From Alphaproteobacteria bacterium (GTDB taxonomy: Bacteria > Pseudomonadota > Alphaproteobacteria > CAAGCB01 > CAG-977): DNA of 35,286 nt. Shown here piece after piece: positions 232 to 31,741 of this stretch. Each line of letters opens with the position of its first letter. Positions within the stretch are counted from its first letter, which is position 1. The notes beneath the pieces are model-generated. The model was given only the letters and a program-made list of their open reading frames with translations, did not search any database and had not been told where the DNA came from. The position numbers and the translations under genes are program-made. The stretch covers positions 1 through 35,286 of the forward strand of contig JAJXEL010000003.1 in NCBI GenBank assembly GCA_021639925.1, given 5' to 3'.

Positions 232-432
232 GCTTTAAATCCGGAACAGCAGCGGGAAGAAAACCGTCAGCCGAATTCACAACAAAAAGCGCCGCCCGAA
301 CAAAAAACGGATCAGGACGACCGGGAAAAACAGGAACAACGGCAATGGCTCAGCGTGATTGAAGACGATCCGTCGGGGCTTTTGCGCGAACGTATCCGCC
401 GGCGCAATTTGATTAAAGGAGGAAAAAGATAA
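1..432 (+). CDS. 3' end (partial at window edge) of a Bat-operon-type VWA/TPR protein (BatB/BatC-like)
   Basis: Frame 1 is open from base 1 to TAA at 430-432 and is not in the ORF track. It translates to long QQDQQQQ runs and ends ...WLSVIEDDPSGLLRERIRRRNLIKGGKR. The W-L-x-x-I/V-x-DDP-x-GLLR tail is, from memory, typical of the VWA/TPR proteins that precede batD. The stop overlaps the batD start (TAATG). Confidence 0.5.
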   Translation, partial: QQDQQQQQDQQQQQQDQQQQQDQQQQDQQQQQQDQQQQQDQQQQQDQQQQQDQQQQQDQQQQQQQDQQQQQDQQNQSALNPEQQREENRQPNSQQKAPPEQKTDQDDREKQEQRQWLSVIEDDPSGLLRERIRRRNLIKGGKR

Positions 433-2294
433 TGAAAAATAAAATTGTCTTTGCATTTCTTGTCATGTTTGCTTTTTGCCGCACGGCTCTGGCGGGGTTT
501 CAGGCCGACGTCAGCCGCACCGTTATTCCCGAAGGCGAAAGTTTCCAGCTTTACCTGCGTCAGGACGGCGACGCCGCGCAGCCGGATATTTCCGTTTTAA
601 ATGAAGATTTCCTGATCGTGATGGAACGTAAAAGTTTTAAGTCCACCTATGTTAACGGTAAAACGCAAACCTTTAATGAAAACGTTTTAACGCTGATTCC
701 CAAAAAAACAGGGGAAGTGACTCTGCCGTCTATCCGCGCGGGCAAGGAACAGACAAAACCGCTGAAACTGACGGTTGTCGCCGGCGGGCAGGCTTTGCCC
801 GACGATCCGGCGGACAGAAAAAAAGCGCAGGCCGCCCAGCCGAATGTGTTTATCCGCTATACCGTGGACAATCAGACGCCTTATGTCGGCCAACAGGTGC
901 CTTTGAGTGTAAAATTGTATTCTTTTGTTCAAACGCCGCTGCTGGACGGGGCGGTCACGCCGCCGCAGGCCGACGGAATTACGGCCGAACAATGGGGGGA
1001 CGTCAAACGGTCGCGCGAAACGGTTAACGGCAGAACATATGACGTGCTGGAATATAAATTTCTGCTGTTTGCCCAGAAAAGCGGACGGATTACATTATCT
1101 CCCGTTCGTTTCAGAGGGACGATCAGCGATCCGGAAGGACGCGATGAAACAATGGAAGATCTGTTCGGTTTCGGCGGATCGGACTTTTTTTCGGGCTTTT
1201 TCGGCCAGAAAAATATTGCCGTACAGTCTTCGGCCGTTGTTCTGGATATTCGGCCGAAACCGGATCAGGCCGGAACGGGGATCTGGCTGCCGGCAACGGA
1301 CGTCGCCGTTTCCGAAGATTTTACCCCGCCCAAACAAACGATTTCTTTGGGGGAAGCTTTGACACGGACGGTTACCGTTATGGCTGCGGGCGTGCGTGAC
1401 AGTCAAATTCCCGATTTGGCATTTCCTGACGGAACGGATTATAAACAGTATCCGGGCAAGACGGATTCAAAAAATCTGTTTGACAACAACGGGATTGTCG
1501 GCGTGAAAACGCGACAGATCGTTTTTATGCCGACCAAAGCGGGGCAGATTGTTTTGCCGCGAATGGAAATCCCCTGGTTTGACGTAAAATCGAAACAGAT
1601 AAAAAAAGCCGTTCTGCCTGCCCGGACGATTACGGTAACGGGGGCGGAAAGCAAACGGCCGGCCGAACCGCCTGTTCTGCCTGCGGCCGCCGCAGATTCA
1701 GGTGCTGCCGCTGCCGCGCCTGCGGTACCGCCGTCTGCCGTCGCGGCAGAATCCGAATTTGCCAAAGCTTTTTCCCAGCCGCCGGAAAATACGGCGGAGC
1801 AAAAAGCTGCCGCGGCGTTTTGGGAAAAATATGTTCATCAGCCGCCCCTGCGCCTGTTTTTGGCCGGCATTTTGGCCGGCGGAGCTGTTGTGACGGTTTT
1901 ATGGCTTTTGCTTCATTTTTTAATTTTTAAAAAAGCGGCTGGAACAAAACCTGCCGGCGGCCAAGATGAAATGCCGCAGCGCCGCGAAGCCGTCAGCCGG
2001 ATAAAGGAAGCCTGTCTGTCCGGTTCCGCCGAACAGGCAAAACGGGCTTTGCTGGATCTGGGGCGCGTGCTGTGGGCTCAAAATCCGCCTTTGACCCTTT
2101 CCGAACTGGCCGGCCGGTTTGATGATAAAGAACTGTCGGAACAGATGGAAAATCTGAACCGGGCTTTATATGCGGGCAATGCCGCCGGCTGGGACGCGAA
2201 GACGTTCTGGACCGTGTTTAAAAAGGTTGAAACCGGCGGAAAAAAACAAAAAAAGAATGAAAAAATTCCCGTTCCTCCGCTTTATCCGGATTAA
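432..2294 (+). CDS. batD: BatD-like oxygen-tolerance family membrane protein
   Basis: 620-aa ORF with an N-terminal signal peptide (MKNKIVFAFLVMFAFCRTALA) and a BatD-like start of the mature protein (DVSRTVIPEGESFQLYL). It also has a Pro/Ala-rich linker, a single C-terminal TM (LFLAGILAGGAVVTVLWLLLHFLIF) and a cytoplasmic tail. It is translationally coupled to the upstream Bat-type gene. Confidence 0.65.
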   Translation: MKNKIVFAFLVMFAFCRTALAGFQADVSRTVIPEGESFQLYLRQDGDAAQPDISVLNEDFLIVMERKSFKSTYVNGKTQTFNENVLTLIPKKTGEVTLPSIRAGKEQTKPLKLTVVAGGQALPDDPADRKKAQAAQPNVFIRYTVDNQTPYVGQQVPLSVKLYSFVQTPLLDGAVTPPQADGITAEQWGDVKRSRETVNGRTYDVLEYKFLLFAQKSGRITLSPVRFRGTISDPEGRDETMEDLFGFGGSDFFSGFFGQKNIAVQSSAVVLDIRPKPDQAGTGIWLPATDVAVSEDFTPPKQTISLGEALTRTVTVMAAGVRDSQIPDLAFPDGTDYKQYPGKTDSKNLFDNNGIVGVKTRQIVFMPTKAGQIVLPRMEIPWFDVKSKQIKKAVLPARTITVTGAESKRPAEPPVLPAAAADSGAAAAAPAVPPSAVAAESEFAKAFSQPPENTAEQKAAAAFWEKYVHQPPLRLFLAGILAGGAVVTVLWLLLHFLIFKKAAGTKPAGGQDEMPQRREAVSRIKEACLSGSAEQAKRALLDLGRVLWAQNPPLTLSELAGRFDDKELSEQMENLNRALYAGNAAGWDAKTFWTVFKKVETGGKKQKKNEKIPVPPLYPD

Positions 2295-9859: not shown

Positions 9860-10564
9860 ATGGAAAAAAGTATGTCAAATGCGTCTGTCCGCCAAAATAT
9901 CAAGAAAGCCGCGGCTTTGGGAATGCCTCCGGCAGACGGCGGACGTATGTCTACTTTTATGTGGTTATCGCGTTTTTTCAGCGTGTTATGCTTTTTTTTA
10001 ATAACATCGCTGGCTGCTTTGGCGCTTTCCCTGATTCATATTACCAAAGAAGCGGAAGTCAACTCTGTATTGGTGACGGCGCCGACATATTCGGAAAACC
10101 TGTCTTATTTTGAACCGCTGCACCCGGATATGCCCGCGATGGATATTCTGGCGGAAATGTTCGTGCGCCAATATGTGACGGCCAGAAATAACGTTTGGCG
10201 CAATGCGCCTGAAATGCGGCGTATGTGGGGGCCCGGCGGCGTTGTGCGTTATATGTCAACGCCGGCTGTATATGATGATTTTGTCCGCCGGGAAGTCGGC
10301 AGATATTTTCCCGAACCCGAATATGCTCCGAAGGTTATGGTTGAAACGGATATCAAAAAAATTATTAAAGAAGGCTGGAACAGCTGGCAGATTTTTTTTG
10401 ATACCCGTAAAATGGACACGTCAATCAGCCAGCCGGTTGTTGAACATTGGATCGCCACCATACAGTTTCGTTACTATTCCGATAACGCCGTAATGTTTTC
10501 CCGTCTGCGCAATCCGCTGGGATTTACGGTAACTCAATATCATCTGGCCCGTCAGAAAAAATAA
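9860..10564 (+). CDS. virB8: VirB8-like T4SS inner-membrane protein, paralog 1
   Basis: Bitopic topology: short N-terminus, TM (FFSVLCFFLITSLAALALSLI), then a periplasmic domain of about 170 aa. It has the C-terminal RLRNPLGFTVTQY motif, which matches the NPxGF signature of VirB8. It is clearly paralogous to 10789-11562 (shared RQYV..RN, WGP.G..R.MS...VY..F and RL.NPLGF.V..Y). Confidence 0.65.
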   Translation: MEKSMSNASVRQNIKKAAALGMPPADGGRMSTFMWLSRFFSVLCFFLITSLAALALSLIHITKEAEVNSVLVTAPTYSENLSYFEPLHPDMPAMDILAEMFVRQYVTARNNVWRNAPEMRRMWGPGGVVRYMSTPAVYDDFVRREVGRYFPEPEYAPKVMVETDIKKIIKEGWNSWQIFFDTRKMDTSISQPVVEHWIATIQFRYYSDNAVMFSRLRNPLGFTVTQYHLARQKK

Positions 10565-10582
10565 AAGGGGAGGAATAAAAAA

Positions 10583-10777
10583 ATGAAGAAAAAAATAATC
10601 GGCAGAATGTTTTTTATGATCGCTTTGTGCGCCGTGTTGAATTCATGCGGCTCTATTTATGAAAAAGAACCGATCGGAATAGGCCCGGATATTTCTGAAT
10701 TGAAACGTTCTCCGTGCGCTTGTATGCTTTTAAAACTGCCGGCCGATTTGCCTGAATGGATAACGGCTCAGGGATAA
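10583..10777 (+). CDS. Small lipoprotein in the VirB7 position
   Basis: 64 aa with a signal peptide and a lipobox-like VLNSC|G, preceded by a strong RBS (GGGGAGGA). The call rests on position between the virB8 paralogs and on size. No VirB7 sequence motif was recognised. Confidence 0.45.
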   Translation: MKKKIIGRMFFMIALCAVLNSCGSIYEKEPIGIGPDISELKRSPCACMLLKLPADLPEWITAQG

Positions 10778-10788
10778 CGGGATAAAAA

Positions 10789-11562
10789 ATGATGCCAAAA
10801 CCGGTAAAATCAAAACAACAGCTGACAGTCAAAGAATCTGACGATAAGCCTTTGCAAAAAGGCGGGCCGCGCGGCAATGTCGATTTGAAAAAAACAGCTG
10901 CGGAAGAAACGGCACGCGAAGAAATTTCGGTGGATCTGCTGCGTGAAAGGCGTTATCTGTGGACGGCTCGCGCTTTTGCGATCGTTTCCGCCGTAGCGCT
11001 GTGCGTTAATTTGGTTTTACTGCTGGCGATTGTTCATATGATGCCGTTGAAACGTGTCGAACCGTTTTTGCTGACATTCCAGAACAAAGACGAACAGGTC
11101 GTCAAGATCCGTCCTTTGGCAAAGGACATGTCGGCCGAAGACATTATTTCCGAAGCCATGATCCGGCAATATGTTTTGCTGCGTAACACTATGATTTCCG
11201 ATGTTGACGAAATGTCGTTCCGCTGGGGGCCGGACGGTCCTTTGCGCTGGATGTCTTCGGCGCAGGTGTATAACCAGTTTGCCAAAACGGTAAAAGACTG
11301 GCTGTCCAGAATTAAATTGGAAGGCTTGACGCGTGAAGTCAGAATTGAATCCGTCGTCCGCAACCAGAACATTTGGCTGGTTTATATCGTTACGCGCGAT
11401 ATGCTGCCGGAAGCCGAAGAACCTGCCATTTCGCGTTGGCGTATCCGCTTGTCAATCAAGTACTTCGCCAAAGATCAAAGAGAAGTCAAATATATCGACC
11501 GTTTGAAAAATCCGCTGGGATTTGCCGTCGATGGATATGCTATTGAAAGTGCTAACGATTAA
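10789..11562 (+). CDS. virB8: VirB8-like T4SS inner-membrane protein, paralog 2
   Basis: Cytoplasmic N-terminus of about 60 aa, TM (FAIVSAVALCVNLVLLLAIV), a periplasmic NTF2-like-sized domain and the C-terminal RLKNPLGFAVDGY. Confidence 0.7.
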   Translation: MMPKPVKSKQQLTVKESDDKPLQKGGPRGNVDLKKTAAEETAREEISVDLLRERRYLWTARAFAIVSAVALCVNLVLLLAIVHMMPLKRVEPFLLTFQNKDEQVVKIRPLAKDMSAEDIISEAMIRQYVLLRNTMISDVDEMSFRWGPDGPLRWMSSAQVYNQFAKTVKDWLSRIKLEGLTREVRIESVVRNQNIWLVYIVTRDMLPEAEEPAISRWRIRLSIKYFAKDQREVKYIDRLKNPLGFAVDGYAIESAND

Positions 11563-11574
11563 AGAAGGTGTCCC

Positions 11575-13110
11575 GTGAAAAGAAATTTTAAAATCCGCCT
11601 TTTTGCTTTTGTTTCATTGTCGTTGTGTTTTTTAACGCACACAGCTGCGGCACAGCAGACGGCGGCGCGTGAATCAATGGACGCGGCGATTGAACAGTCA
11701 AACGGACAATATTCCGAAATCGATATGCCGTTTTGGTCTTTGGGCATGCAGCAAAAAGCATGGAACAAACCGATGGAGCATTTGGGCGAAGGACAGTCCA
11801 AACCGGGGTATTCCAGATATCATTGGACGCCTGATCTGGTTTTGCCTTTGCGTATCCGGGAAGGCATGCATACGCTGATTAATTTCCCGTCCTGGGAATT
11901 GATTGAAAACGTTTTTTTGGGAAATGAAAGCGCTTTTGGCGCGCAGAAAGTCGCGCAAAACGCTTTGATGGTTTTCGCGGCAAGCGTTGATCTGGTCGGT
12001 ATGGATACGAATATGATTGTTTTCGGCCGTTCCGGCAACCGATACGTTTTTTATTTAAGAAGCGAAACCTTTAATACGGACAGAATTACAAACTCTGTCG
12101 TTGATATTGTTGTCAATGATACGAAATTTGTTCCCGACGATTCCGGACAGACGCCTTTTGCTTCCGGCGCTGTCGGCGCGGGAGCTGCTTCTGTCGCGGG
12201 GGGCGCCGGAAATTTCAGCGGCGGCAGTCTGCGCGGCGGAAAAAAAACGACGACAAAAAACGGAACGGAAGACTGGCTGGCGGATATTGAAGTCGATCCC
12301 GAAAAACTGCGTTTCGACATTGACGTTTTTATTCCGAATCCGGCTGATATGGAAATTGCGCCCGAACGTGTCTGGCGCGATGAAATTTTCACTTATATTG
12401 ACTTCGGGCCGAAAGCTTTGACAATGACGGAACGCCCGATCGTCAACCTGTTGTCGCAAGGATCCGAAGTGCCTATCGGATTCAGAACGCGCGGACCGAA
12501 CGGCAGACTGATGGTTGTCGAAGGAATCGGCGATTTGGTTTTGCGCAACGGAAAACGTATTTTATGCCTGAAAATCAGAAAAGATCCGACTTACGGCACC
12601 GAATGGGTGGAATATGAAGAATCTGTCCAGCCGAAATGGTCGCCTGGCCCGATGATTACGACGGGCGGTTATAATATGTCTGCGGGCGGTGCCGGCGGCG
12701 GCGCGGTTAATATGAATATGCAGGCGGCGGCGAATGCCATGATGATGCCGGCCGGGGCGAACGGAACGTTGTCGGCTAATCAGATCGCGCAGTTTTCACA
12801 GACAGGGCGCGGCAGTTCCCGTACGGTACAGCGTTATCGCGGCGCGCCTGTGGAAACGATTGCCGTCGAGCTGGGATCTGACAGCGAAATCGCGCCGCTG
12901 GAACAGAAATGGGATAATATTTCTCGCAGAAACAAAGATCTGCTCGGCGGGTATGAACCGTATTATTCCGTTGACGCTGTGGCGGAAGGCGAATCAAGGG
13001 ATTTGTTCCGTTTGCGCATCGGTCCTGTTGACAGTATCGAAGCCGGGGACAAATTATGTAATCAATTAGGTCGCCGCGGGGTGACTTGCATGGTTGTGCG
13101 GACACAATGA
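11575..13110 (+). CDS. virB9: VirB9/CagX/TrbG-family outer-membrane core protein with a C-terminal SPOR-like domain
   Basis: GTG start after a GAAGG RBS, with signal peptide MKRNFKIRLFAFVSLSLCFLTHTAAA. The N-terminal VirB9 domain reads LRIREGMHTLINFPSWELIENVFLGNESAF...TNMIVFGRSGNRYVFYLRSE. The C-terminal VirB9 domain reads PERVWRDEIFTYIDFG...LMVVEGIGDLVLRNGKRILCLKI. The last 85 aa or so resemble a SPOR domain. Confidence 0.8.
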   Translation: MKRNFKIRLFAFVSLSLCFLTHTAAAQQTAARESMDAAIEQSNGQYSEIDMPFWSLGMQQKAWNKPMEHLGEGQSKPGYSRYHWTPDLVLPLRIREGMHTLINFPSWELIENVFLGNESAFGAQKVAQNALMVFAASVDLVGMDTNMIVFGRSGNRYVFYLRSETFNTDRITNSVVDIVVNDTKFVPDDSGQTPFASGAVGAGAASVAGGAGNFSGGSLRGGKKTTTKNGTEDWLADIEVDPEKLRFDIDVFIPNPADMEIAPERVWRDEIFTYIDFGPKALTMTERPIVNLLSQGSEVPIGFRTRGPNGRLMVVEGIGDLVLRNGKRILCLKIRKDPTYGTEWVEYEESVQPKWSPGPMITTGGYNMSAGGAGGGAVNMNMQAAANAMMMPAGANGTLSANQIAQFSQTGRGSSRTVQRYRGAPVETIAVELGSDSEIAPLEQKWDNISRRNKDLLGGYEPYYSVDAVAEGESRDLFRLRIGPVDSIEAGDKLCNQLGRRGVTCMVVRTQ

Positions 13111-16100
13111 ACGAAGAATTACTCAGCTCATCAGACAGATACTTAAAAAAATCCAACAAGATGTTGTTGATTGTCGGGATTATAGCCTTTTTGGCTTTCC
13201 TGACAGGGGTTATTGTTTTGTTGAGCGGAGGCGAAGAAGGCAAGAAAGACGCCGAAGTCACTATTGGCGGATCGGCGGAAAGCTCCAGCAGTATTACCGG
13301 CGGCAATGCGGATACGTTTAATCTGGCCGAAGAGCCGGCTCCTTCAACCGTGCGGCTGGTCGTAACGCCGGAAACAATGCGTTTCGATCAGGTTGTGCTG
13401 GGTACTGTGGCGGAAGGAACGTTGACATTGTCGGCTTCTTCCGGCCGGATCAGTATTACTTCGATAGAGTTTGAAAATAAACAGGAAGACGGCTTTGTCC
13501 TGGAAAACAAATGCCGTAAAGACATTGTCCTGACCGGTGATGTTACCTGTAACGTTGTTGTTCGCTGGGAACCAAAGACGGCGCGGACAATCCAGTCTAA
13601 CCTGGCGGTCCGCTGGGCTGATGAAACATTCGGCGGTATCGGCAGAAAAGTCATTGTTCCCATTTCGGCAATGGCGATTGACACCAGCATGTGCGGCGTC
13701 TGCGATGAAGCGCCGGGCAGCGGCGGTTCCATGCTTGACCAGTTGCGTCAAAAAGGACGCGTTATTTTGGGGCCCGACGGAAAACCGATCGGTTATGCCG
13801 ATGAAAACGGCGTTGTTTACGGGCTGGACGGCAAACGGATAGGCACTTTGCGCGAAGACGGAACGGTCGTTGACGATCAGGGGTATGTGATCGGCGTGGC
13901 GGAAGGAACTCGGCTGGCAATCGGCCCGAACGGAGAAATTCTGGGAACGATTTTACCTGACGGGCGTGTCATTGACAAAGACGGCCGCCTGATCGGTTAC
14001 GCTTTGCCTGACGGAACGATCGTCGATCTGGACGGAAATGTTATCGGGTCGGCGGTAAGAACGGGAATAGCTTATGATAAAAACGGCAATCCGATCGGAC
14101 GGATTATGCCTGACGGAACGGTCGTTGATGAAAACGGAAATATCATCGGCTATTTAAATCCGGACGGAACGATTGTCGATGCCAACGGAAACATTATCGG
14201 ATCGGTCGCGCCGCAGGGCACCGTTGTGGACGCTTCGGGCAAAGCGTTGGGCATTGTTATGCCGGACGGAACGGTCGTTGATGCCGACGGCAACATTATC
14301 GGCCGCGTTCTGCCTAACGGTTTTGTCGTTGACAGAGACGGCAACATTATCGGCCGCGTTGTTAAAGAAGGACTGGCCATTGGTCCCGGCTGCCGTATGA
14401 TTGGCCGGATCAGTACGGACGGTTCCGTTATGTCTTCAAACCGGCAGGTCGGGCGTTTGACGGCGTCAATGACGGTTGTCGACATGTCGGGCAATCCGAT
14501 CGGCGGTTATGTGGAAGAAGGGGCTTTGATTGACTGGGCCGGAAAAATTGTCGGTAAAGTGGATCAGGACGGCCACCCGGTCAGTTTCAAAGGAGATCCT
14601 CTGGGGTGTCTGACGCCTTACGGCACAGTTGTTAATGATGCCGAAGAAATTATGGCGGCCGTTTTGCCGAAGGGAACCGTTGTCGGCACGCAATGCGGCG
14701 TTGTCGGGCGCGTTATGCCGGACGGCAGCGTTGTCGGCGACGGGCAGATCAAAGGGCGGATTTTGCCGGACAAATCATTTTTGTCGACAGAAGGAAAAAT
14801 TGAAGGAGCCCTGGCGCGTCAAAATGTCGGCGTCGGGCCGGGGTGCCTGTCTTTGGGATACGCCAATATAGACGGGCAGGTTATTACGGCGAAGGGGGAA
14901 TTTGTCGGTTGTCTGGCGGCGAACGGAGAAATTCTGGATAATCAAAAAGTCGTTTTGGGCCGGATTCTTGATTCTGCCATCGCGTTAAACGCGGACGGTC
15001 GTGTCGTCGGTATTATGGATCCCGCCGGCAAGATTCAGGATAAACAGGGAAAAATTCTGGGGTGTATGGATCCCGACGGTTTGGTAATAAATTCCAAAAA
15101 TGAATCGGTCGGTATGCTGATGCCGATAGGCGGCGTTTTGGATCGCGACGGCCGAACAATCGGCTGGGTCATGCCGGACGGGTCTGTTTCCAACGCCAAA
15201 AACAGTACGATCGGCAAAGTCATGCCGGACGGAACCGTAATTGATTTGAGCGGGCAGACGGTCGCGCGTGTCGCCCCGCATAAAGGCGTCGCGTTAAGAA
15301 GCGCCTGCGAACCGGCCGGTACCATTTTGGTTGACGGCCGTGTCGTGGACAAAGAATTTAAACGATCGGCCTATATTCAGATGAATGATACGCTGGTTGG
15401 TGAAAACGGAGATTTTGTCGGTCGTGTCGCTTACGGATCGCGGGCAATCAGTCCTAAAGACATGTATCTGGGGACAACGGCAAACGATGGCGCGCTGTAT
15501 AATCCGGCAGGGGAAAAAATCGGCTGTCTGCGTCCGGATTCCTTGTTTGTTGATTCAAATAATAAATTTTTAGGGGCAGCTTTACCCGAAGGAATCGCCA
15601 TTAATAATAAATCAGAGCTATACGCCCGCGGCGATTCGATTGCCAAAGCTTTGAATTTAAAGGGAACTGAATTTATCGGATCAATAACGCTCAGCAGTTT
15701 TGTCAAGGAAGGCGATACGATTTCCGGCGGTATTATTCCGGACAGAGCCGATGTTCTGGATATTAAAACCAGCGAAAAAATCGGCCGTCTGCTGCCTGAC
15801 GGAACGGCTTTGGATTTGCTCAGCCGTTATTTGGGGCGTTTAAGAATGCCCGGCGGCGAAATCGTGAACAAAGACGGCCGCGTCGTCGGTAAAATATTTG
15901 TCGGCATGCGGCAGGTGATCGGCCCGAACGGAGAAATTCTGGGCGTTGTCATGCCTGACGGAACGGTTGTTGACGCTTCCGGCCGCGTTATCGGCAAAGC
16001 GGATCTGAACGGAAAAGTGGTTGACGCTTCCGGGCGCGTCATCGGCGAAGTTATTCCGGTCGGCCAGCCGATTATAGGTCCTGACGGTAAAATTATCGGT

Positions 16101-19100
16101 TATGTCGGCATCGACGGGCAGATCGTTGACAAAGACGGCAATCCCGTTTTGGGTCCTGACGGAAAACCGCTGCGTTACCGGGCGGGCGGATCTGTCGTTG
16201 AAGACAGCGGAAAAGTGATCGGCAGAATCGGCGACACGCTGGAACGCCTGGTGTATGATGAAAACGGCAACGTGATCGGCCGTGTTCTGCCTGACGGAAC
16301 GGTTGTTGATTTAAACGGCAACGTGATCGGGAAAATGCTGCCCGACGGAACGGTTGTTGATTTAAATGGAAACGTTATCGGGCGGGCCGGGCCGCCGGAA
16401 CGGCTGGTATATGATGAAAACGGCAATCTGATCGGCCGTGTTCTGGCCGACGGAACGGTCGTTGATTTGAAAGGCAACGTGATCGGCCGTGTCCAGGCTG
16501 ACGGAACGGTAACCGCCCTGGGGTCAAAAGTGATCGGTTATACTGTTAAGGACGGTCTGGGGCTGAACTTTAAAAATGAAATTATCGGCAAAATCGATTC
16601 TTCCGGACAGCTGAAAGAAGCGGGATCGGATAAATCTCTGGGGGTTCTGCAGGCGGACGATACGATTACCGACAGCCGAAACGCCATTATCGGCAAAGGG
16701 GTCGTGAACGCTGTTCCCGTCGGGCTGCAATGCCAGATGCTTGGTTCGATTGATGACAAAGGGCAGGTCATTGATACGGCGGGCCGGCAGATCGGGCGGC
16801 TGAATTTTGACCGGACTTTGGTTAATTCCGGTAATTCTCAGATCGGTTTGGCTTTGGGGCAGGAATCTATCATCAACGAACCGTGCAAAATCATCGGACA
16901 AATTACGGCGGAAGGAAAAGCCGTTGATACCAAAGGCGCGGAAATCGGCTGCGTTGATTTTGAAGGATTGGTAAAAGATAAAAACGGCAAACGTTTGGGG
17001 CGTATTGTCCAAAAAGGACAAATTCGCGGCCCTGACGACCAAATGATCGGCAGGATTGTTTCCAGCGGCGAAGCGTTGGGGGCAGAGGGGAATGCCTTAG
17101 GCTGTTTTTCTGTTGACGGGGCTGTTTTAGATAAAAATAAAAAAATTCTGGGGGTCGCGGCGGACATGAAATATGCCGTTGACGATCAGGGAAAAATTGT
17201 CGCGCATATTCTGGGCGGAACGTATGGCGTTAATCCCGAAGGCGGCGCTTTTGTCGGAACGTTGAACGGGCAGAATTTAACCGGATCTGATAATAAACAG
17301 CTGGGCGTTCTGGTGCCTTCCGGCCGGCGTGTGATCGCCGTGGACGGCAAAACGATCGGTACCGTTTTGCCCCGCGGACGCGTTCATAACGACCGCGGAG
17401 AAGAAATCGGCTATGTTACGTCTTCAATGCGCGTTTTAACCGGCGACCGTAAGTTTTTAGGCCGTGTCGTTCCGATCGGCGAAGAATGTAAAGACGGTAA
17501 AAATAATGTTGTCGGAACCGTTCATTTCGACGGGACGATTGTTGATGAAAGAAAGCAGGTCCTGGGACGTTTGCTGGCCAGCGGGCAGGCTTTGGATAAT
17601 GCCGGGGCGCATTTATGCATGATCTCTTTAATCAGCACAAATGACGACGGGTCTTTGTTCCCGAAAGGGTTAATCGGCAAAATGGTTTACGGGCCGGACG
17701 GCAAACCTTTGGGGGTTGTCGGCGCTGACGGTTTTATCCGCGATGCGAACGGCAATATTATCGGCCGTGTTCTGCCTGATGGTACGGTCGTTGATTTAAA
17801 CGGCAATGTGATCGGCAAAGCGTATCCGAAAGGGGCCGTGTTCAGCCCTGACGGGAAATTCCTTGGAATTGTTGATGCGGACGGGTATCTGCGCGATGAA
17901 AACGGTAACATCATCGGCAGAATGTTGCCGGACGGAACGGTCGTCGATATTAACGGCAACATTATCGGCCGCGCTTTGCTGGAAGATGGCATTGTCGATT
18001 CAAAAGGAAATTTCCTGACCAGAGCGGGTGAAGACCGGCTGGTATATGATGAAAACGGCAACGTGATCGGCCGTGTTTTACCCGACGGAACGGTTGTTGA
18101 CTTAAACGGTAAAGTCATCGGAAAAATGCTGCCCGACGGAACAGTCGTTGATTTGAACGGCAAGGTTATTGGTAAAGCTGCTCCGGCCGGTCAGTCAAAA
18201 AATGTCCGTATAGCCGTCGGCCGTGACGGAAAGTTCTTGGGCATTGTCGGTGAGGACGGTTTTGTCCGGGACGAAAACGGCAATATTATCGGCCGTGTTC
18301 TGCCTGACGGTACGGTCGTTGATTTAAACGGTAATGTGATCGGTTCCGTTATTGAAGGGGAACCGATGCGCGACGAAAACGGCAATATCATCGGTGTTAT
18401 TATGCCCGACGGACGGGTCGTTGACCTGGACGGCAATGTGATCGGACGCATTAATGCAAACGGAGAAATCGTTGACGCGGACGGAACCGTTTTGGGAACG
18501 TGGCGCGGCGGAAAACTGACGGCGATGAGCGACAAGCTGCAACAAAAACGTTTTGCTTTCGGCAAAGACGGCAAACGGATCGGCATGATTATGCCCGACG
18601 GAACGGTCGTTGATGAAAACGGCAATATTATCGGCCGCGTTGATGAAAACGGTAATGTTATTGATCTGGACGGCAATATTATCGGGACGGTTACGGATCC
18701 GGGGGCGGTCGCCGGACAACAAGGGGGCCAAGGGGACCAAAAAGATGACCGTGTGTCTATTTTTGGCACTTTTGATCCGGATAATTACCGGTATCGCGGC
18801 AAATCTTTGGGGGCCGGCGGCGGCACCGGAAAAGGGGAACGTTACGATCCTGCCCGGATTAAACAGCTGCGGGCGCTGCAGATGGCTTACCGCCGCCAGA
18901 TCAGGCCGGGGCGGGGAATAGGTATAGCCTCTGTTGAAGAAGATTTGATGAAAAAACAAAAACGCAGCAAAAACTGGAATGCTTTGGGGATACAGAAAAA
19001 TGTTTCTTCATATCGCGTCAACATGGATAATATGATTTTGGCGGATAAAGCGATTCCTGCCGTTTTGGCGCGTTCTATTGATACGGAACAGGAAGATATT

Positions 19101-19973
19101 CCCATTTCCGCGATTGTTGAGCGCAATATTTATTCCGAATCAGGACGTAAAATTATTATTCCCGCCGGCAGCCGTATTATCGGTGAATTGTCGGGTACGT
19201 CCGCTTCTGAAGAAGTCGGGTCGGCTTCGAAAGTCGAAATTGAATGGACCCGCCTGATTCGTCCGGACGGCGCAGCGTTCCAGTTTGAAGAAGGCGTTTC
19301 CGGCGATGCTTCCGGCCGCGCGGGCGTCGGCGCGTATATGGATCGTCAGCTGATGAAGAAATACGGGCTGCCGGTGGTTCAGTCAACAATTACTTCTGCG
19401 ATTTTGTATGCGATGGCGACAAACGATTCCGCGGCTGTCGGATCTGAAGGCGAAGTCGCTATGTCCGGCCGTCAGCAGGCGGCGGAAGATGCGCGTACCA
19501 GATTTTCCGATACGATGCAGGAAATTTTTGATGATTTAATTACCGAAACGTCAAAGCTGAAAACACGTTTGTTTGTTCCGGCCGGGACGCGTATTACTGT
19601 TTTTGCTAAATCTGATCTGTGGCTGCGCAGCTCTTTGGAAGACGAGGAAGAAGAAAACGGCGAAATCACGAAGCCTAATGTTTTGTTGGATCCGGATAAA
19701 GAATTCCCTGAAGGAGAAACAACGCCGGCACAAGGCGGCGACGTCAATACCAATAATGCAAACCAGGGAAATCCGAATGATCCGAATAACTTGCAGCAGC
19801 AGCAGCAAATTTATTATAATAACTACGCCGGCCAGCAGCCGCAGCAACAGCCTCAGCCGCCGCAGCTGATTGATCCCAATAAACACAAACAGCAGCCGCA
19901 GCAACTTGTTCCGCAGCAGACAATGCAGGAAAAGAAAGAAGAACCGGTTGATCCTGTTCCCGAGCTTTTCTAA
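13107..19973 (+). CDS. virB10: Giant VirB10/TrbI-family T4SS core protein (about 2,288 aa) with a large internal tandem-repeat region
   Basis: ATG 13107 overlaps the virB9 stop (ATGA). The N-terminal TM is MLLIVGIIAFLAFLTGVIVLL. The C-terminal TrbI/VirB10 pattern lies at about 19020-19630: ILADKAIPAVLARSIDTEQEDIPISAIVERNIYSESGRKIIIPAGSRIIGEL, VEIEWTRLIRPDGAAFQF, GDASGRAGVGAYMDRQL and LFVPAGTRITVFAKSDLWL. About 1,640 aa of 17-aa repeats lie between the two ends. Confidence 0.85.
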   Translation: MNEELLSSSDRYLKKSNKMLLIVGIIAFLAFLTGVIVLLSGGEEGKKDAEVTIGGSAESSSSITGGNADTFNLAEEPAPSTVRLVVTPETMRFDQVVLGTVAEGTLTLSASSGRISITSIEFENKQEDGFVLENKCRKDIVLTGDVTCNVVVRWEPKTARTIQSNLAVRWADETFGGIGRKVIVPISAMAIDTSMCGVCDEAPGSGGSMLDQLRQKGRVILGPDGKPIGYADENGVVYGLDGKRIGTLREDGTVVDDQGYVIGVAEGTRLAIGPNGEILGTILPDGRVIDKDGRLIGYALPDGTIVDLDGNVIGSAVRTGIAYDKNGNPIGRIMPDGTVVDENGNIIGYLNPDGTIVDANGNIIGSVAPQGTVVDASGKALGIVMPDGTVVDADGNIIGRVLPNGFVVDRDGNIIGRVVKEGLAIGPGCRMIGRISTDGSVMSSNRQVGRLTASMTVVDMSGNPIGGYVEEGALIDWAGKIVGKVDQDGHPVSFKGDPLGCLTPYGTVVNDAEEIMAAVLPKGTVVGTQCGVVGRVMPDGSVVGDGQIKGRILPDKSFLSTEGKIEGALARQNVGVGPGCLSLGYANIDGQVITAKGEFVGCLAANGEILDNQKVVLGRILDSAIALNADGRVVGIMDPAGKIQDKQGKILGCMDPDGLVINSKNESVGMLMPIGGVLDRDGRTIGWVMPDGSVSNAKNSTIGKVMPDGTVIDLSGQTVARVAPHKGVALRSACEPAGTILVDGRVVDKEFKRSAYIQMNDTLVGENGDFVGRVAYGSRAISPKDMYLGTTANDGALYNPAGEKIGCLRPDSLFVDSNNKFLGAALPEGIAINNKSELYARGDSIAKALNLKGTEFIGSITLSSFVKEGDTISGGIIPDRADVLDIKTSEKIGRLLPDGTALDLLSRYLGRLRMPGGEIVNKDGRVVGKIFVGMRQVIGPNGEILGVVMPDGTVVDASGRVIGKADLNGKVVDASGRVIGEVIPVGQPIIGPDGKIIGYVGIDGQIVDKDGNPVLGPDGKPLRYRAGGSVVEDSGKVIGRIGDTLERLVYDENGNVIGRVLPDGTVVDLNGNVIGKMLPDGTVVDLNGNVIGRAGPPERLVYDENGNLIGRVLADGTVVDLKGNVIGRVQADGTVTALGSKVIGYTVKDGLGLNFKNEIIGKIDSSGQLKEAGSDKSLGVLQADDTITDSRNAIIGKGVVNAVPVGLQCQMLGSIDDKGQVIDTAGRQIGRLNFDRTLVNSGNSQIGLALGQESIINEPCKIIGQITAEGKAVDTKGAEIGCVDFEGLVKDKNGKRLGRIVQKGQIRGPDDQMIGRIVSSGEALGAEGNALGCFSVDGAVLDKNKKILGVAADMKYAVDDQGKIVAHILGGTYGVNPEGGAFVGTLNGQNLTGSDNKQLGVLVPSGRRVIAVDGKTIGTVLPRGRVHNDRGEEIGYVTSSMRVLTGDRKFLGRVVPIGEECKDGKNNVVGTVHFDGTIVDERKQVLGRLLASGQALDNAGAHLCMISLISTNDDGSLFPKGLIGKMVYGPDGKPLGVVGADGFIRDANGNIIGRVLPDGTVVDLNGNVIGKAYPKGAVFSPDGKFLGIVDADGYLRDENGNIIGRMLPDGTVVDINGNIIGRALLEDGIVDSKGNFLTRAGEDRLVYDENGNVIGRVLPDGTVVDLNGKVIGKMLPDGTVVDLNGKVIGKAAPAGQSKNVRIAVGRDGKFLGIVGEDGFVRDENGNIIGRVLPDGTVVDLNGNVIGSVIEGEPMRDENGNIIGVIMPDGRVVDLDGNVIGRINANGEIVDADGTVLGTWRGGKLTAMSDKLQQKRFAFGKDGKRIGMIMPDGTVVDENGNIIGRVDENGNVIDLDGNIIGTVTDPGAVAGQQGGQGDQKDDRVSIFGTFDPDNYRYRGKSLGAGGGTGKGERYDPARIKQLRALQMAYRRQIRPGRGIGIASVEEDLMKKQKRSKNWNALGIQKNVSSYRVNMDNMILADKAIPAVLARSIDTEQEDIPISAIVERNIYSESGRKIIIPAGSRIIGELSGTSASEEVGSASKVEIEWTRLIRPDGAAFQFEEGVSGDASGRAGVGAYMDRQLMKKYGLPVVQSTITSAILYAMATNDSAAVGSEGEVAMSGRQQAAEDARTRFSDTMQEIFDDLITETSKLKTRLFVPAGTRITVFAKSDLWLRSSLEDEEEENGEITKPNVLLDPDKEFPEGETTPAQGGDVNTNNANQGNPNDPNNLQQQQQIYYNNYAGQQPQQQPQPPQLIDPNKHKQQPQQLVPQQTMQEKKEEPVDPVPELF
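13765..18695 (+). repeat. In-frame tandem array with 51-nt (17-aa) period, consensus about P-D-G-T-V-V-D-x-x-G-N-I/V-I-G-x-V/M-L, on the order of 90-100 units
   Basis: At 14104-14360 there are five consecutive exact-length units: PDGTVVDENGNIIGYLN, PDGTIVDANGNIIGSVA, PQGTVVDASGKALGIVM, PDGTVVDADGNIIGRVL and PNGFVVDRDGNIIGRVV. Well-conserved blocks sit at about 13765-14370, 15920-16540 and 17690-18695, separated by degenerate units. The unit count is region length divided by 17, not an exact count. Confidence 0.85.
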
Positions 19974-19991: not shown

Positions 19992-20969
19992 ATGAGTACG
20001 GATTCCTTTCAGGTTTTAAAATCAACATTGCGTTATCTGTCCTATTGGTATGAACAGGATAACGTGGAAGAAGTTGCCATTAACCGGCCGAATGAAATCT
20101 GGCTGCGCCTGCGCGGGCGCCGGGCTCATCCCTGGGCGTGCCAGCAGGACGCGAACCTGTCCAGAACATATTTGACGGATATTATGCATATTATCGCCAA
20201 CACTTTTGAATTGCCGTTTGACCCCGAACAGGGATCGCCGGCCGTTTATGCCACTTTGCCGGGCGATCACCGTTTTACGGGAATTGCCGGTAAAAACGTC
20301 ATGTATGATAATGAAGATTTAACCGGCGGTATCGCTATGTGCGTGCGCGTTCATTCCGACGACGTCAAATTCGGTTTGGGCGATTACGGGTTAAAATCAG
20401 GGGAACGTCTGCAAAAATTGAATAAATTAAAAGAAGTGGAAAATCCCGAAGATCCTTACGAACGTTTAATTCTGTCGATTAAACGCGGCGACCATATTTT
20501 GGTTTCCGGGGCGACGGCAACCGGTAAAACAACATTTTTGAATAACCTGCTGACAATTTTGGATTCACATAAACGGGTGATTACGATTGAAGATACCCGC
20601 GAATTGATCGTTCCGCACCCTAATCATGTTCATTTGGTGTTGTCGCGTACCGAACAGACAAATACGATGACATATCCGAAACTGATTGACCTGGTCGTCC
20701 GTTTTACGCCTGACGCGATTATCGGAGGGGAAATTTCGACGGCAAACGCGGGGGCGTTGTGGGAATTGATGGGATCCGGGCATGATAACTGCTTTGCGAC
20801 AATCCACGCCGAAAATTCCGAAGCTGCTTATAAAGCGTTTACAGACCGTATTTTGCATTGTTATCCGACGATTGACCGCGAAAAAACGATTTCCGAAATG
20901 CATGACAAACTGCGTGTTGTCCAGATTAACCGCCAGGGCAATATCCGCGCCGTAACGGAAGTAACCTGA
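19992..20969 (+). CDS. virB11: VirB11 T4SS traffic ATPase
   Basis: Motifs EVAINRPNEIWL, Walker A SGATATGKTTFLN, ITIEDTRE, GGEISTANAGALWELMGSGHDNCFATIHA. A GAGGGG RBS lies upstream. Confidence 0.9.
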   Translation: MSTDSFQVLKSTLRYLSYWYEQDNVEEVAINRPNEIWLRLRGRRAHPWACQQDANLSRTYLTDIMHIIANTFELPFDPEQGSPAVYATLPGDHRFTGIAGKNVMYDNEDLTGGIAMCVRVHSDDVKFGLGDYGLKSGERLQKLNKLKEVENPEDPYERLILSIKRGDHILVSGATATGKTTFLNNLLTILDSHKRVITIEDTRELIVPHPNHVHLVLSRTEQTNTMTYPKLIDLVVRFTPDAIIGGEISTANAGALWELMGSGHDNCFATIHAENSEAAYKAFTDRILHCYPTIDREKTISEMHDKLRVVQINRQGNIRAVTEVT

Positions 20970-31737: not shown

Positions 31738-31741
31738 AAAA

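What the first reader, a model, noticed from the sequence alone, without database searches (positions are those of the whole stretch)
12853..13107. VirB9 carries a C-terminal SPOR-like peptidoglycan-binding domain
Seen: after the two VirB9 domains and a Gly/Ala/Met/Asn-rich linker, the last 85 aa or so read IAVELGSDSEIAPLEQKWDNISRRNKDLLGGYEPYYSV...DLFRLRIGPVDSIEAGDKLCNQLGRRGVTCMVVR.

Established: SPOR domains have a repeated beta-alpha-beta-beta pattern. The motif is typically hydrophobic-Q/E-L/V-G-S/A-F, then an A-rich helix, then Y-R-V-R-x-G-P-F, then A...C..L...G..C-hydrophobic-hydrophobic. The paired Cys version is, as I remember it, common in alphaproteobacterial SPOR proteins. SPOR domains bind denuded glycan strands.

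Canonical VirB9 is about 270-300 aa and has no peptidoglycan-binding module, whereas this protein is 511 aa.

Inference: the outer-membrane core complex may be tethered directly to the cell wall. That is interesting because no VirB1 transglycosylase lies in the window.
Basis: partly seen in the sequence, partly recalled or inferred. Interest (0 to 1): 0.65.

Follow-up and report, generated by a model that had tools for sequence, protein, structure and literature searches.

The report
VirB9 with a SPOR-like tail
The outer-membrane ring protein (VirB9) of a type IV secretion system in an uncultured gut alphaproteobacterium carries a conserved cell-wall-binding-type (SPOR-like) domain on a flexible tether, but the key sugar-contacting glutamine is replaced by glutamate, so what it binds is open.

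Summary
ORF 11575-13110 (+) is one 511-aa protein: signal peptide, VirB9/CagX core, about 85 disordered residues, and an 84-aa C-terminal domain.

- **SPOR homology:** the tail hits Pfam SPOR above the curated cut-off, though only on the second half of the model. It folds confidently as beta-alpha-beta-beta-alpha-beta, and its best structural matches are the CwlC, RlpA and DedD SPOR domains.
- **Real fusion:** all 29 complete genome loci from gut and rumen Alphaproteobacteria MAGs carry it as a single ORF. A diverged version occurs in VirB9s of cultured Erythrobacter and Sphingosinicella plasmids.
- **Interpretation only partly supported:** the glycan-contacting Gln of canonical SPOR domains (FtsN Q251, RlpA Q270) is an invariant Glu here. 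It is Glu or Asp in 29 of 31 family representatives. Q251E is the mutation reported to reduce FtsN's denuded-glycan binding. The neighbouring Phe is Asp, and the domain is neutral or acidic rather than basic. Two Arg of the basic patch are kept.
- **VirB1 link not supported:** the window holds only virB7-B11, and the same tail occurs in an operon with an SLT gene.

Best reading: a SPOR-derived periplasmic tether with an altered cleft. It is a new variant of a known kind, of moderate interest.

The parts
11575..13110 (+). virB9 gene encoding the 511-aa VirB9 with the SPOR-like tail (stop codon included)
   Evidence: Single ORF. Pfam CagX plus SPOR. More than 1160 homologues of 470-620 aa.
11575..11652 (+). 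Sec-type signal peptide (residues 1-26, MKRNFKIRLFAFVSLSLCFLTHTAAA|QQ)
   Evidence: Read directly from the sequence: basic N-terminus, hydrophobic core and an AxA-type site. No predictor was run. Helix 2-19 in the model.
11815..12570 (+). VirB9/CagX core (residues 81-332): N-terminal beta domain, a Gly/Ala-rich internal linker (about 190-240) and the C-terminal beta domain with invariant Cys331
   Evidence: PF03524 E 6e-14. Beta strands 88-179 and 250-333. Invariant columns.
12592..12852 (+). Disordered Gly/Ala/Met/Asn-rich tether (about residues 340-426), variable in length and sequence among homologues
   Evidence: pLDDT about 30. No consensus in the alignment columns. Homologue lengths 470-620 aa.
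12856..13107 (+). SPOR-like domain (residues 428-511). Beta1 is IAVELGS with Glu432 at the canonical Gln position. Alpha1 is LEQKW. Beta2 is PYYSVD. Beta3 is LFRLRIGP with Arg479 and Arg481. Alpha2 carries Cys495 and beta4 carries Cys505.
13107..13110 (+). ATGA overlap: the virB9 stop codon TGA (13108-13110) overlaps the ATG of virB10 (13107-13109), which suggests translational coupling
   Evidence: Sequence. The same overlap appears in 20 related loci.
10583..10777 (+). 64-aa lipoprotein (lipobox LNSC) between the two virB8 genes; candidate VirB7
   Evidence: ORF and sequence. No Pfam hit. Conserved in position in 30 loci. The VirB7 identity is inferred from position and lipobox only.
9860..10564 (+). 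virB8 copy 1
   Evidence: PF04335 E 7e-15.
10789..11562 (+). virB8 copy 2
   Evidence: PF04335 E 5e-23.
13107..19973 (+). Giant virB10 (about 2288 aa from the ATG): 14 beta-flower repeat matches followed by a C-terminal TrbI/VirB10 domain
   Evidence: PF21785 E 2e-127 with 14 stretches; PF03743 E 3e-28 at residues 1984-2180 of the listed ORF. Comparable size in related loci.
19992..20969 (+). virB11 ATPase
   Evidence: PF00437 E 6.5e-21.

Best explanation
The gene encodes the VirB9 subunit of a chromosomal VirB-type (type IVA) secretion system. A SPOR-derived domain has been fused to its C-terminus through an unstructured tether of about 85 residues.

VirB9 is secreted to the periplasm and assembles into the outer-membrane core complex with VirB7 and VirB10. 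That complex is 14-fold in solved systems (background knowledge, not tested here). Each copy would then dangle one SPOR-like module far enough below the outer membrane to reach the peptidoglycan layer.

I think the module most likely still docks the core complex to the cell wall through the exposed face of its beta sheet. That face is the most conserved surface of the tail: Glu432, Ser465, Asp467, Arg479 and Arg481. The two invariant Cys (495 in alpha2, 505 at beta4) probably form a stabilising periplasmic disulfide.

The cleft is not canonical. The glycan-contacting Gln is Glu, the Phe that follows the GS/GA is Asp, and the domain is not basic. So the ligand is probably not the plain denuded glycan bound by FtsN and RlpA. 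It would be either a modified form of the sacculus or the same glycan bound weakly, with avidity from many copies compensating.

Shown: the fusion, its fold class, its conservation and the residue substitutions. Inferred: periplasmic location, multimeric display, disulfide, and any binding to peptidoglycan.
For: - Single ORF with VirB9 core and SPOR hit above the Pfam cut-off.
- 22 of 23 diverse tails hit SPOR.
- Confident beta-alpha-beta-beta-alpha-beta model.
- Best PDB fold matches are the SPOR domains of CwlC, RlpA and DedD.
- hhalign to E. coli SPOR domains gives E 1e-4 across beta1-alpha2.
- The tail is more conserved than the linker and holds 15 invariant columns in 34 sequences that go down to 48% identity.
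- The beta3 motif FRLRIGP keeps the Arg equivalent to FtsN R285 in the alignment; the RxR spacing matches P. aeruginosa RlpA R309/R311 of the basic patch, a mapping made through the paper's R285 = R309 statement.
- The fusion is retained in all 29 complete loci from different MAG species, always between virB8 and virB10.
- The same tail family occurs at the extreme C-terminus of 29 cluster representatives and of two VirB9s on plasmids of cultured Alphaproteobacteria.
- Linker length and disorder fit a tether.
Against: - The Gln that SPOR domains use to contact MurNAc and GlcNAc is an invariant Glu. The same substitution in FtsN (Q251E) is reported to reduce denuded-glycan binding and septal localisation.
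- Phe274-equivalent is Asp.
- Net charge is about 0, and -3 in the window, against +3 to +8 in E. coli SPOR domains.
- Pfam aligns only the second half of the SPOR model.
- The ferredoxin-like fold is common, and non-SPOR proteins follow closely in the Foldseek list.
- No binding data exist for any member.
Confidence: 0.5

Rival explanations
1. Canonical SPOR function. The tail binds denuded (stem-peptide-free) glycan strands made by amidases, as FtsN, DamX, DedD and RlpA do. It thereby recruits or retains the core complex at division septa and new poles, or at amidase-processed gaps in the wall.
For: SPOR HMM hit above threshold and SPOR fold. Most glycan contacts in RlpA SPOR come from backbone atoms of beta1, which depend on the fold and not on side chains. 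Two Arg of the basic patch are kept. One family member has Gln at the key position (P0130).
Against: Invariant Glu in place of the key Gln, the very change that weakens FtsN binding. Phe to Asp and loss of net positive charge. Glu or Asp has been selected for across the whole family (29 of 31), which argues for a different requirement and not drift.
Confidence: 0.15
2. Protein-binding or ring-forming module. The SPOR-derived fold has lost glycan binding. It now mediates contacts within the machine, for example an extra periplasmic ring under the core complex, or docking to VirB10, VirB8 or VirB7. The extra N0-domain ring of Xanthomonas VirB7 would be an analogue (background knowledge).
For: The canonical cleft residues are replaced and the domain is not basic. 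Small alpha/beta domains of this kind often build rings in secretion machines (background knowledge). The conserved surface carries mixed charge (Glu, Asp, Arg, Arg), which suits a protein interface.
Against: A long disordered tether of variable length fits reaching a distant layer better than a fixed ring. The tail occurs with VirB10s of very different size: about 580 aa in L036 and L038, 1008 aa in L037 and about 2290 aa here. So it does not track the giant VirB10. No partner was tested.
Confidence: 0.25
3. Chance resemblance. The tail is a generic ferredoxin-like domain unrelated to SPOR.
For: Only half of the Pfam model aligns. hhalign probability is only 58%. PII-like and S6-like folds appear close behind in Foldseek. 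Most diverged tails are not detected by Pfam SPOR: 11 of 57 detected.
Against: Independent lines agree. The curated threshold is passed. 22 of 23 homologues hit SPOR. Three diverged tails give sub-threshold hits spanning profile positions 4-75. SPOR structures rank first with probability 1.0. The motifs xVxLGS and RLRxGP align in register with FtsN, RlpA and DedD.
Confidence: 0.07

Closest known systems
SPOR domains of FtsN, DamX, DedD and RlpA (E. coli, P. aeruginosa) and CwlC (B. subtilis); Pfam PF05036
   Same: About 75-85 aa with beta-alpha-beta-beta-alpha-beta topology. C-terminal position after a disordered low-complexity linker. Beta1 motif h-V-x-h-G-S and beta3 motif R-h-R-h-G-P. Arg equivalents of the basic patch. 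A Cys at beta4, as in FtsN.
   Different: Glu in place of the conserved Gln, and Asp in place of Phe. About 9 extra residues between alpha1 and beta2. Neutral or acidic instead of basic. The Cys pair lies in alpha2 and beta4, whereas FtsN pairs beta1 with beta4. It is attached to a secretion-system subunit and not to a division protein or cell-wall enzyme.
Canonical VirB9/TrbG/CagX (Agrobacterium VirB9, pKM101 TraO, R388 TrwF; Pfam PF03524)
   Same: Signal peptide, two beta domains, and a gene placed between virB8 and virB10. A VirB7-like lipoprotein gene lies nearby. There is a conserved Cys in the C-terminal domain.
   Different: Canonical proteins are about 270-300 aa and end after the C-terminal domain (background knowledge; 69 of 131 near relatives also do). 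This one adds about 170 residues. The core is diverged: it scores below the NCBIfam VirB9 equivalog cut-off (43 against 218 bits) and has no sequence hit to any solved structure.
VirB9 of Erythrobacter aureus YH-07 plasmid (WP_115418090.1, 432 aa) and of Sphingosinicella sp. BN140058 p1 (WP_129392748.1)
   Same: Same tail family at the C-terminus (iterated profile E about 5e-19 at Z = 100,000). Motifs YxVDLG, VRLRVGPF and C-x10-C.
   Different: These sit in contiguous plasmid virB2-B11 plus virD4 operons with a VirB10 of normal size. Asp replaces Glu. Pfam SPOR is below threshold (E 0.006 and 0.19). They are annotated only as TrbG/VirB9.
Peptidoglycan-binding parts of other envelope machines: DotK (OmpA-like) in the Legionella Dot/Icm core complex, the TagL/TssL extension in type VI secretion, GspA/ExeA in type II, TsaP (LysM) at the type IV pilus secretin, and MotB
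   Same: The general idea of tying a trans-envelope machine to the sacculus through a dedicated wall-binding module. This comparison rests on background knowledge and was not tested here.
   Different: Those use OmpA-like, LysM or PG_binding_1 folds that bind ordinary peptidoglycan, mostly on separate subunits. Here the module is SPOR-type and fused to VirB9 itself.
Rickettsiales vir homologue (rvh) type IV system
   Same: Gene order virB8-virB7-virB8-virB9-virB10-virB11 on the chromosome, with the other vir genes elsewhere. The rvh layout is recalled from background knowledge.
   Different: No virD4 follows virB11 here; trkH does. VirB10 is giant. The VirB9 tail is not a described rvh feature. 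No direct comparison with Rickettsia proteins was made.

Membership tests
SPOR domain (Pfam PF05036) | Profile HMM score at or above the curated gathering cut-off | tested here: met
   27.5 bits on the tail and 23.3 on the whole protein, against a cut-off of 21. Only profile positions 33-76 align. 22 of 23 homologous tails also hit.
SPOR domain (Pfam PF05036) | RNP-like fold: four-stranded antiparallel sheet with two helices on one side, in the order beta-alpha-beta-beta-alpha-beta | tested here: met
   AlphaFold2 model with domain pLDDT above 90. Foldseek top hits are the SPOR domains 1x60, 6i05/6i09 and 6ztg.
SPOR domain (Pfam PF05036) | Conserved Gln in beta1 that contacts MurNAc and GlcNAc (RlpA Q270, FtsN Q251, DamX Q351) | tested here: not met
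   Glu432, invariant in 23 of 23 tails. Glu or Asp in 29 of 31 members of the wider family. The role of the Gln comes from PMC6895207. The Q251E defect is reported.
SPOR domain (Pfam PF05036) | Basic patch on the sheet (RlpA R302/R309/R311, FtsN R285) | tested here: inconclusive
   Arg479 and Arg481 in FRLRIGP match the R309/R311 positions and are invariant or nearly so. No R302 equivalent was seen, and the net charge of the domain is about 0.
SPOR domain (Pfam PF05036) | Aromatic residue after the G-S/A of beta1 (RlpA F274, profile position 12) | tested here: not met
   Asp436 in VELGSD.
SPOR domain (Pfam PF05036) | Binds denuded glycan strands and localises to septa | not testable with these tools
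   Needs sacculus pull-down, ITC with synthetic glycans, or localisation of a fluorescent fusion.
VirB9/TrbG/CagX (Pfam PF03524) | Profile HMM score at or above the curated cut-off | tested here: met
   52.8 bits against 34.2, residues 81-332.
VirB9/TrbG/CagX (Pfam PF03524) | Gene context between virB8 and virB10, with virB11 following | tested here: met
   Conserved in related loci.
VirB9 equivalog (NCBIfam TIGR02781) | Score at or above the equivalog cut-off | tested here: not met
   43.4 bits against 217.7. This is a diverged subfamily and not the Agrobacterium-type equivalog.
rvh-type (Rickettsiales-like) type IV system | Duplicated virB8 flanking virB7, followed by virB9-B10-B11, with the other vir genes scattered | tested here: inconclusive
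   The gene order is present. The location of virB2-B6 and virD4 is unknown, and the proteins were not compared with Rickettsia.

The most novel reading that the evidence does not exclude
The Glu/Asp-for-Gln SPOR variant is a distinct specificity class. An acidic cleft residue next to two Arg could recognise a modified glycan that ordinary SPOR domains reject. One candidate is de-N-acetylated denuded strands, whose glucosamine is cationic. Such strands are now known to be made at division sites in E. coli by SddA (PMC12440217), and simulations suggest RlpA SPOR does not hold them. Fourteen tethered copies would then place or retain the secretion machine at a chemically marked zone of the wall, for example the septum and later the new pole. 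That would give a direct molecular cause for polar placement of a type IV system.
Probability: 0.1. Interest if true: 0.8.

Novelty: new variant of a known kind. Interest (0 to 1): 0.5.

Why it matters
How type IVA secretion machines cross and attach to the cell wall is poorly defined. VirB1-type transglycosylases are thought to make the hole, but no wall-anchoring element of the VirB7/9/10 core complex is established.

A SPOR-type module hard-wired to VirB9 and conserved across a whole alphaproteobacterial VirB9 lineage, including gut and rumen species and plasmids of cultured bacteria, gives a concrete and testable candidate for such an anchor or positioning device. The cultured hosts (Erythrobacter aureus YH-07, Sphingosinicella sp. 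BN140058) make experiments feasible.

The family also offers a natural experiment on SPOR specificity. It has fixed the very substitution (Gln to Glu) that is used in the laboratory to weaken denuded-glycan binding.

If the tail turns out to be only a structural spacer or a protein-contact domain, the finding is a routine domain-architecture variant.

Tried and rejected
- **Sequence search of the tail against PDB.** The single sequence found only chance hits (SEPALLATA 3, E 0.46). The profile gave a weak CwlC hit (E 0.025). The fold search was needed.
- **Full-length profile against PDB sequences.** No hit at E up to 0.01, so no solved VirB9 could serve as a close reference.
- **Full-length AlphaFold2.** Poor overall (pLDDT 50, pTM 0.27). 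It is usable only for domain limits and disorder, and it says nothing about whether the tail docks on the core.
- **Literature.** 'VirB9' with 'SPOR domain' returned 0 papers. 'VirB9' with 'SPOR' as whole words returned 2 papers that mention VirB9 only once each (a cell-wall-hydrolase review and a rhizosphere-colonisation paper, judged from titles and term counts, not read). 'SPOR' with 'type IV secretion' and 'denuded' returned nothing relevant. 'RF32' with 'type IV secretion' returned 0, and the DotK query returned 0. The library omits most subscription-journal papers, so this is absence in the library only.
- **Naming the organisms of distant representatives.** The cluster look-up gave almost no names. 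Context came from the encoding contigs instead.
- **'The tail compensates for a missing VirB1.'** Rejected, because an SLT gene accompanies a tailed VirB9 in L036 and the window holds only part of the system.
- **'The tail co-evolved with the giant VirB10.'** Rejected, because tailed VirB9s occur with VirB10s of about 580 and 1008 aa.
- **About 20 further extended VirB9 representatives** end in a Cys pair but are not linked to the tail family by the iterated profile. Their nature was left open.
- **Cys495-Cys505 distance.** It could not be measured because model coordinates are not exposed.
Full report
**1. What is in the sequence**

The ORF at 11575-13110 (+) is uninterrupted and encodes 511 aa from a GTG start. 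Its N-terminus (MKRNFKIRLFAFVSLSLCFLTHTAAA|QQ) reads as a Sec signal peptide. That is by inspection; no predictor was run.

- Pfam places a CagX/VirB9 domain at residues 81-332 (E 6e-14, 52.8 bits, cut-off 34.2).
- Pfam places a SPOR domain at 464-509. The E-value is 8e-5 on the whole protein. On the last 85 aa alone it is 3.9e-6, with 27.5 bits against a cut-off of 21.
- The SPOR match covers only profile positions 33-76, the second half of the domain.
- NCBIfam sees only a weak VirB9 match, 43 bits against an equivalog cut-off of 218.
- A profile of the whole family finds no solved structure by sequence. This is therefore a diverged VirB9 lineage.

The finding's start coordinate, 12853, is codon 427, two codons before the quoted IAVELG.

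**2. Is the tail a SPOR domain?**

Several independent tests agree that it is.

- Of 23 homologous tails chosen to be less than 75% identical, 22 hit Pfam SPOR (best E 4.4e-8).
- AlphaFold2 on that alignment gives a confident model (pLDDT 85.5 overall, above 90 within the domain). The strand and helix order is beta-alpha-beta-beta-alpha-beta.
- The same segment is the only high-confidence part of the full-length model (pLDDT 90-95 for residues 430-510).
- Foldseek against PDB ranks the CwlC SPOR domain first (1x60, E 4e-4, TM 0.70). RlpA SPOR (6i05/6i09, probability 1.0, TM 0.58-0.66) and DedD SPOR (6ztg) are among the first five. Generic ferredoxin-like proteins follow with lower TM scores.
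- I fetched the real E. coli FtsN, RlpA, DedD and DamX genes and aligned their SPOR domains to the family.
- The profile-profile comparison gives E 1e-4 (probability 58%) over 71 columns. It includes beta1, which Pfam did not align.

I conclude that the tail is a diverged SPOR homologue and not a chance look-alike.

**3. Is it a real fusion?**

Yes.

- The protein search returned more than 1160 homologues. The best 120 are 356-617 aa, and all full-length ones end in the same conserved tail.
- The genome scan found 31 loci, all in uncultured gut, rumen or faecal Alphaproteobacteria MAGs. The nearest is 95% identical and labelled 'uncultured Rhodospirillaceae bacterium UMGS1296'.
- In all 29 loci with a complete gene, core and tail are one ORF. 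Each has the xAxELG motif and a Cys pair.
- The tail holds 15 invariant columns in 34 sequences that go down to 48% identity.
- The virB9 stop codon overlaps the virB10 ATG (ATGA at 13107-13110). The same overlap is seen in 20 loci.

**4. How far does the fusion extend?**

A search of 1.84 billion cluster representatives with the VirB9 core alone (residues 60-365) found only 465 proteins at E up to 0.001.

| Group among the best 150 representatives | Count |
|---|---|
| Complete VirB9 core | 131 |
| Stop within 70 aa of the core (no tail) | 69 |
| Carry 70 aa or more beyond the core | 62 |
| Of those 62, end in a C-x(6-13)-C pair | 50 |
| Linked to the tail family by an iterated profile (E < 1e-3 at Z = 100,000) | 29 |
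| Extended representatives detected by Pfam SPOR | 11 of 57 |

All 29 profile-linked domains lie at the extreme C-terminus. Three of ten diverged tails give sub-threshold SPOR hits that span the whole model.

Contexts of diverged members are ordinary contiguous virB2-B11 operons.
- One has an SLT gene, virD4 and a relaxase-type helicase (L036).
- One lies next to a plasmid replication gene (L037).
- A third is L038.

A protein search of annotated plasmids found the nearest cultured relatives. The VirB9s of an Erythrobacter aureus YH-07 plasmid (432 aa) and of Sphingosinicella sp. BN140058 p1 both have the tail (YEVDLGSG ... VRLRVGPF ... VCKAMTAAGKSCAV). They are annotated only as TrbG/VirB9, and Pfam SPOR is below threshold.

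The module is therefore an old feature of one alphaproteobacterial VirB9 lineage that I found described in no paper of the searchable library. It is clearest in the gut clade of this window.

**5. The important departure**

- In the alignment with FtsN (WMVQCGSF), RlpA (FMVQVGAV), DedD (YVVQLGAL) and DamX (YTLQLSSS), the window has IAVELGSD.
- The Gln is the one side chain that is highly conserved among SPOR domains.
- In the RlpA-glycan crystal structures it hydrogen-bonds the lactyl carboxylate of MurNAc(1) and the N-acetyl of GlcNAc(2). The Phe three residues later stacks on the glycan (PMC6895207).
- Here the Gln is Glu, invariant in 23 of 23 tails. Across the wider family it is Glu or Asp in 29 of 31, with one Gln and one Val.
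- The Phe position is Asp.
- The tails are neutral overall (median net charge 0; the window's is -3, pI 4.8). The four E. coli SPOR domains are +3 to +8 with pI 9.5-10.3.

On the other side:
- Beta3 (LFRLRIGP) keeps Arg479 and Arg481, which correspond to RlpA R309/R311 and FtsN R285 of the basic patch.
- Most glycan contacts in RlpA SPOR are made by backbone atoms of beta1.
- From the alternation of residues in the strands, I infer that the exposed sheet face carries Glu432, Ser465, Asp467, Arg479 and Arg481, all invariant or nearly so. The classical binding face is thus the conserved face, but with its own signature.
- The two invariant Cys lie in alpha2 and at the start of beta4. FtsN's essential disulfide joins beta1 to beta4, so this pairing is different. 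A disulfide here is inferred, not shown.

**6. Mechanism**

The best reading (about 0.5) is a SPOR-derived wall tether with an altered cleft.
- Each VirB9 in the core complex hangs one module on a disordered linker of about 85 residues.
- That is long enough to reach the peptidoglycan from the outer-membrane-proximal C-terminal domain.
- Many copies would give avidity.
- The ligand is probably not the plain denuded glycan.

Rivals:
- Canonical denuded-glycan binding with septal or polar targeting (about 0.15).
- A protein-contact or ring-forming module that has lost glycan binding (about 0.25).
- Chance resemblance (about 0.07).

The window holds only virB8-B7-B8-B9-B10-B11 followed by trkH. 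The rest of the system, and any virB1, would be elsewhere. A tailed VirB9 also coexists with an SLT gene in L036.

**7. Comparison and novelty**

- The protein works like, and passes the profile and fold tests for, a SPOR domain, but it fails two of the residue-level features. It is best filed as a SPOR-like variant.
- It is a VirB9 by profile and context, but not the Agrobacterium-type equivalog.
- Wall-binding modules on other envelope machines are well known (DotK in Dot/Icm, TagL in type VI, GspA, TsaP, MotB). That comparison rests on background knowledge. The principle is therefore not new.
- A SPOR-type module fused to VirB9 appears in no paper of the searchable library.
- Automated Pfam annotation already marks PF05036 together with PF03524 on about 30 of the 120 listed database entries.

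I rate it a new variant of a known kind, with interest about 0.5. The most novel reading not excluded is that the acidic-cleft SPOR class recognises a modified glycan, such as de-N-acetylated denuded strands, and so positions the machine. I give that about 0.1.

Noticed in passing
window 13107-19973 (+): VirB10 is giant: about 2288 aa, where VirB10s elsewhere in this VirB9 lineage are about 580 aa. Between the N-terminal membrane segment and the C-terminal TrbI domain lie 14 matches to the 5-fold beta-flower repeat (PF21785, E 2e-127), with overlapping DUF3659 and RHS-repeat hits. The size is kept in the related gut and rumen loci. It recalls the repeat-expanded VirB10 homologue CagY of Helicobacter (background knowledge).
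   Followed up: partly
window 9860-11562 (+): Two virB8 genes flank a 64-aa lipoprotein gene (lipobox LNSC; candidate virB7). virB9-B10-B11 follow, and then trkH with no virD4. No virB2-B6 lies in the window. The order resembles the Rickettsiales rvh layout as I recall it. Loci L024-L031 have only one virB8.
   Followed up: partly
window 19992-20969 (+) and loci L001-L023: VirB11 is 94-100% identical in amino acids across loci L001-L023, apart from a partial 77% match in L017. In the same loci VirB8 copy 1 is 40-93% identical and the VirB9 core 68-97%. That is unusually strong constraint relative to the rest of the operon.
   Followed up: no
window 29977-33133 (+): Adjacent genes encode an AlgX-type SGNH domain protein (586 aa) and an MBOAT acyltransferase (475 aa). 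This pairing is typical of polysaccharide or peptidoglycan O-acetylation systems (background knowledge). It could bear on cell-wall chemistry in this organism.
   Followed up: no
representatives P0150, P0154, P0160, P0167, P0171, P0175, P0177, P0181, P0197, P0199, P0200, P0209-P0212, P0219, P0223, P0237, P0262, P0263: About 20 further extended VirB9 representatives end in a similar Cys pair (for example ...A..hC..h...G..C...) but are not linked to the SPOR-like tail by the iterated profile or by Pfam. They may be more diverged copies of the same module or a different one.
   Followed up: partly
window 432-2294 (+): A BatD-family protein (BatD and DUF7939 domains) lies at the left end of the window, followed by an ABC substrate-binding protein and a phosphofructokinase. 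This ordinary chromosomal context indicates that the vir cluster is chromosomal and not on a plasmid.
   Followed up: no
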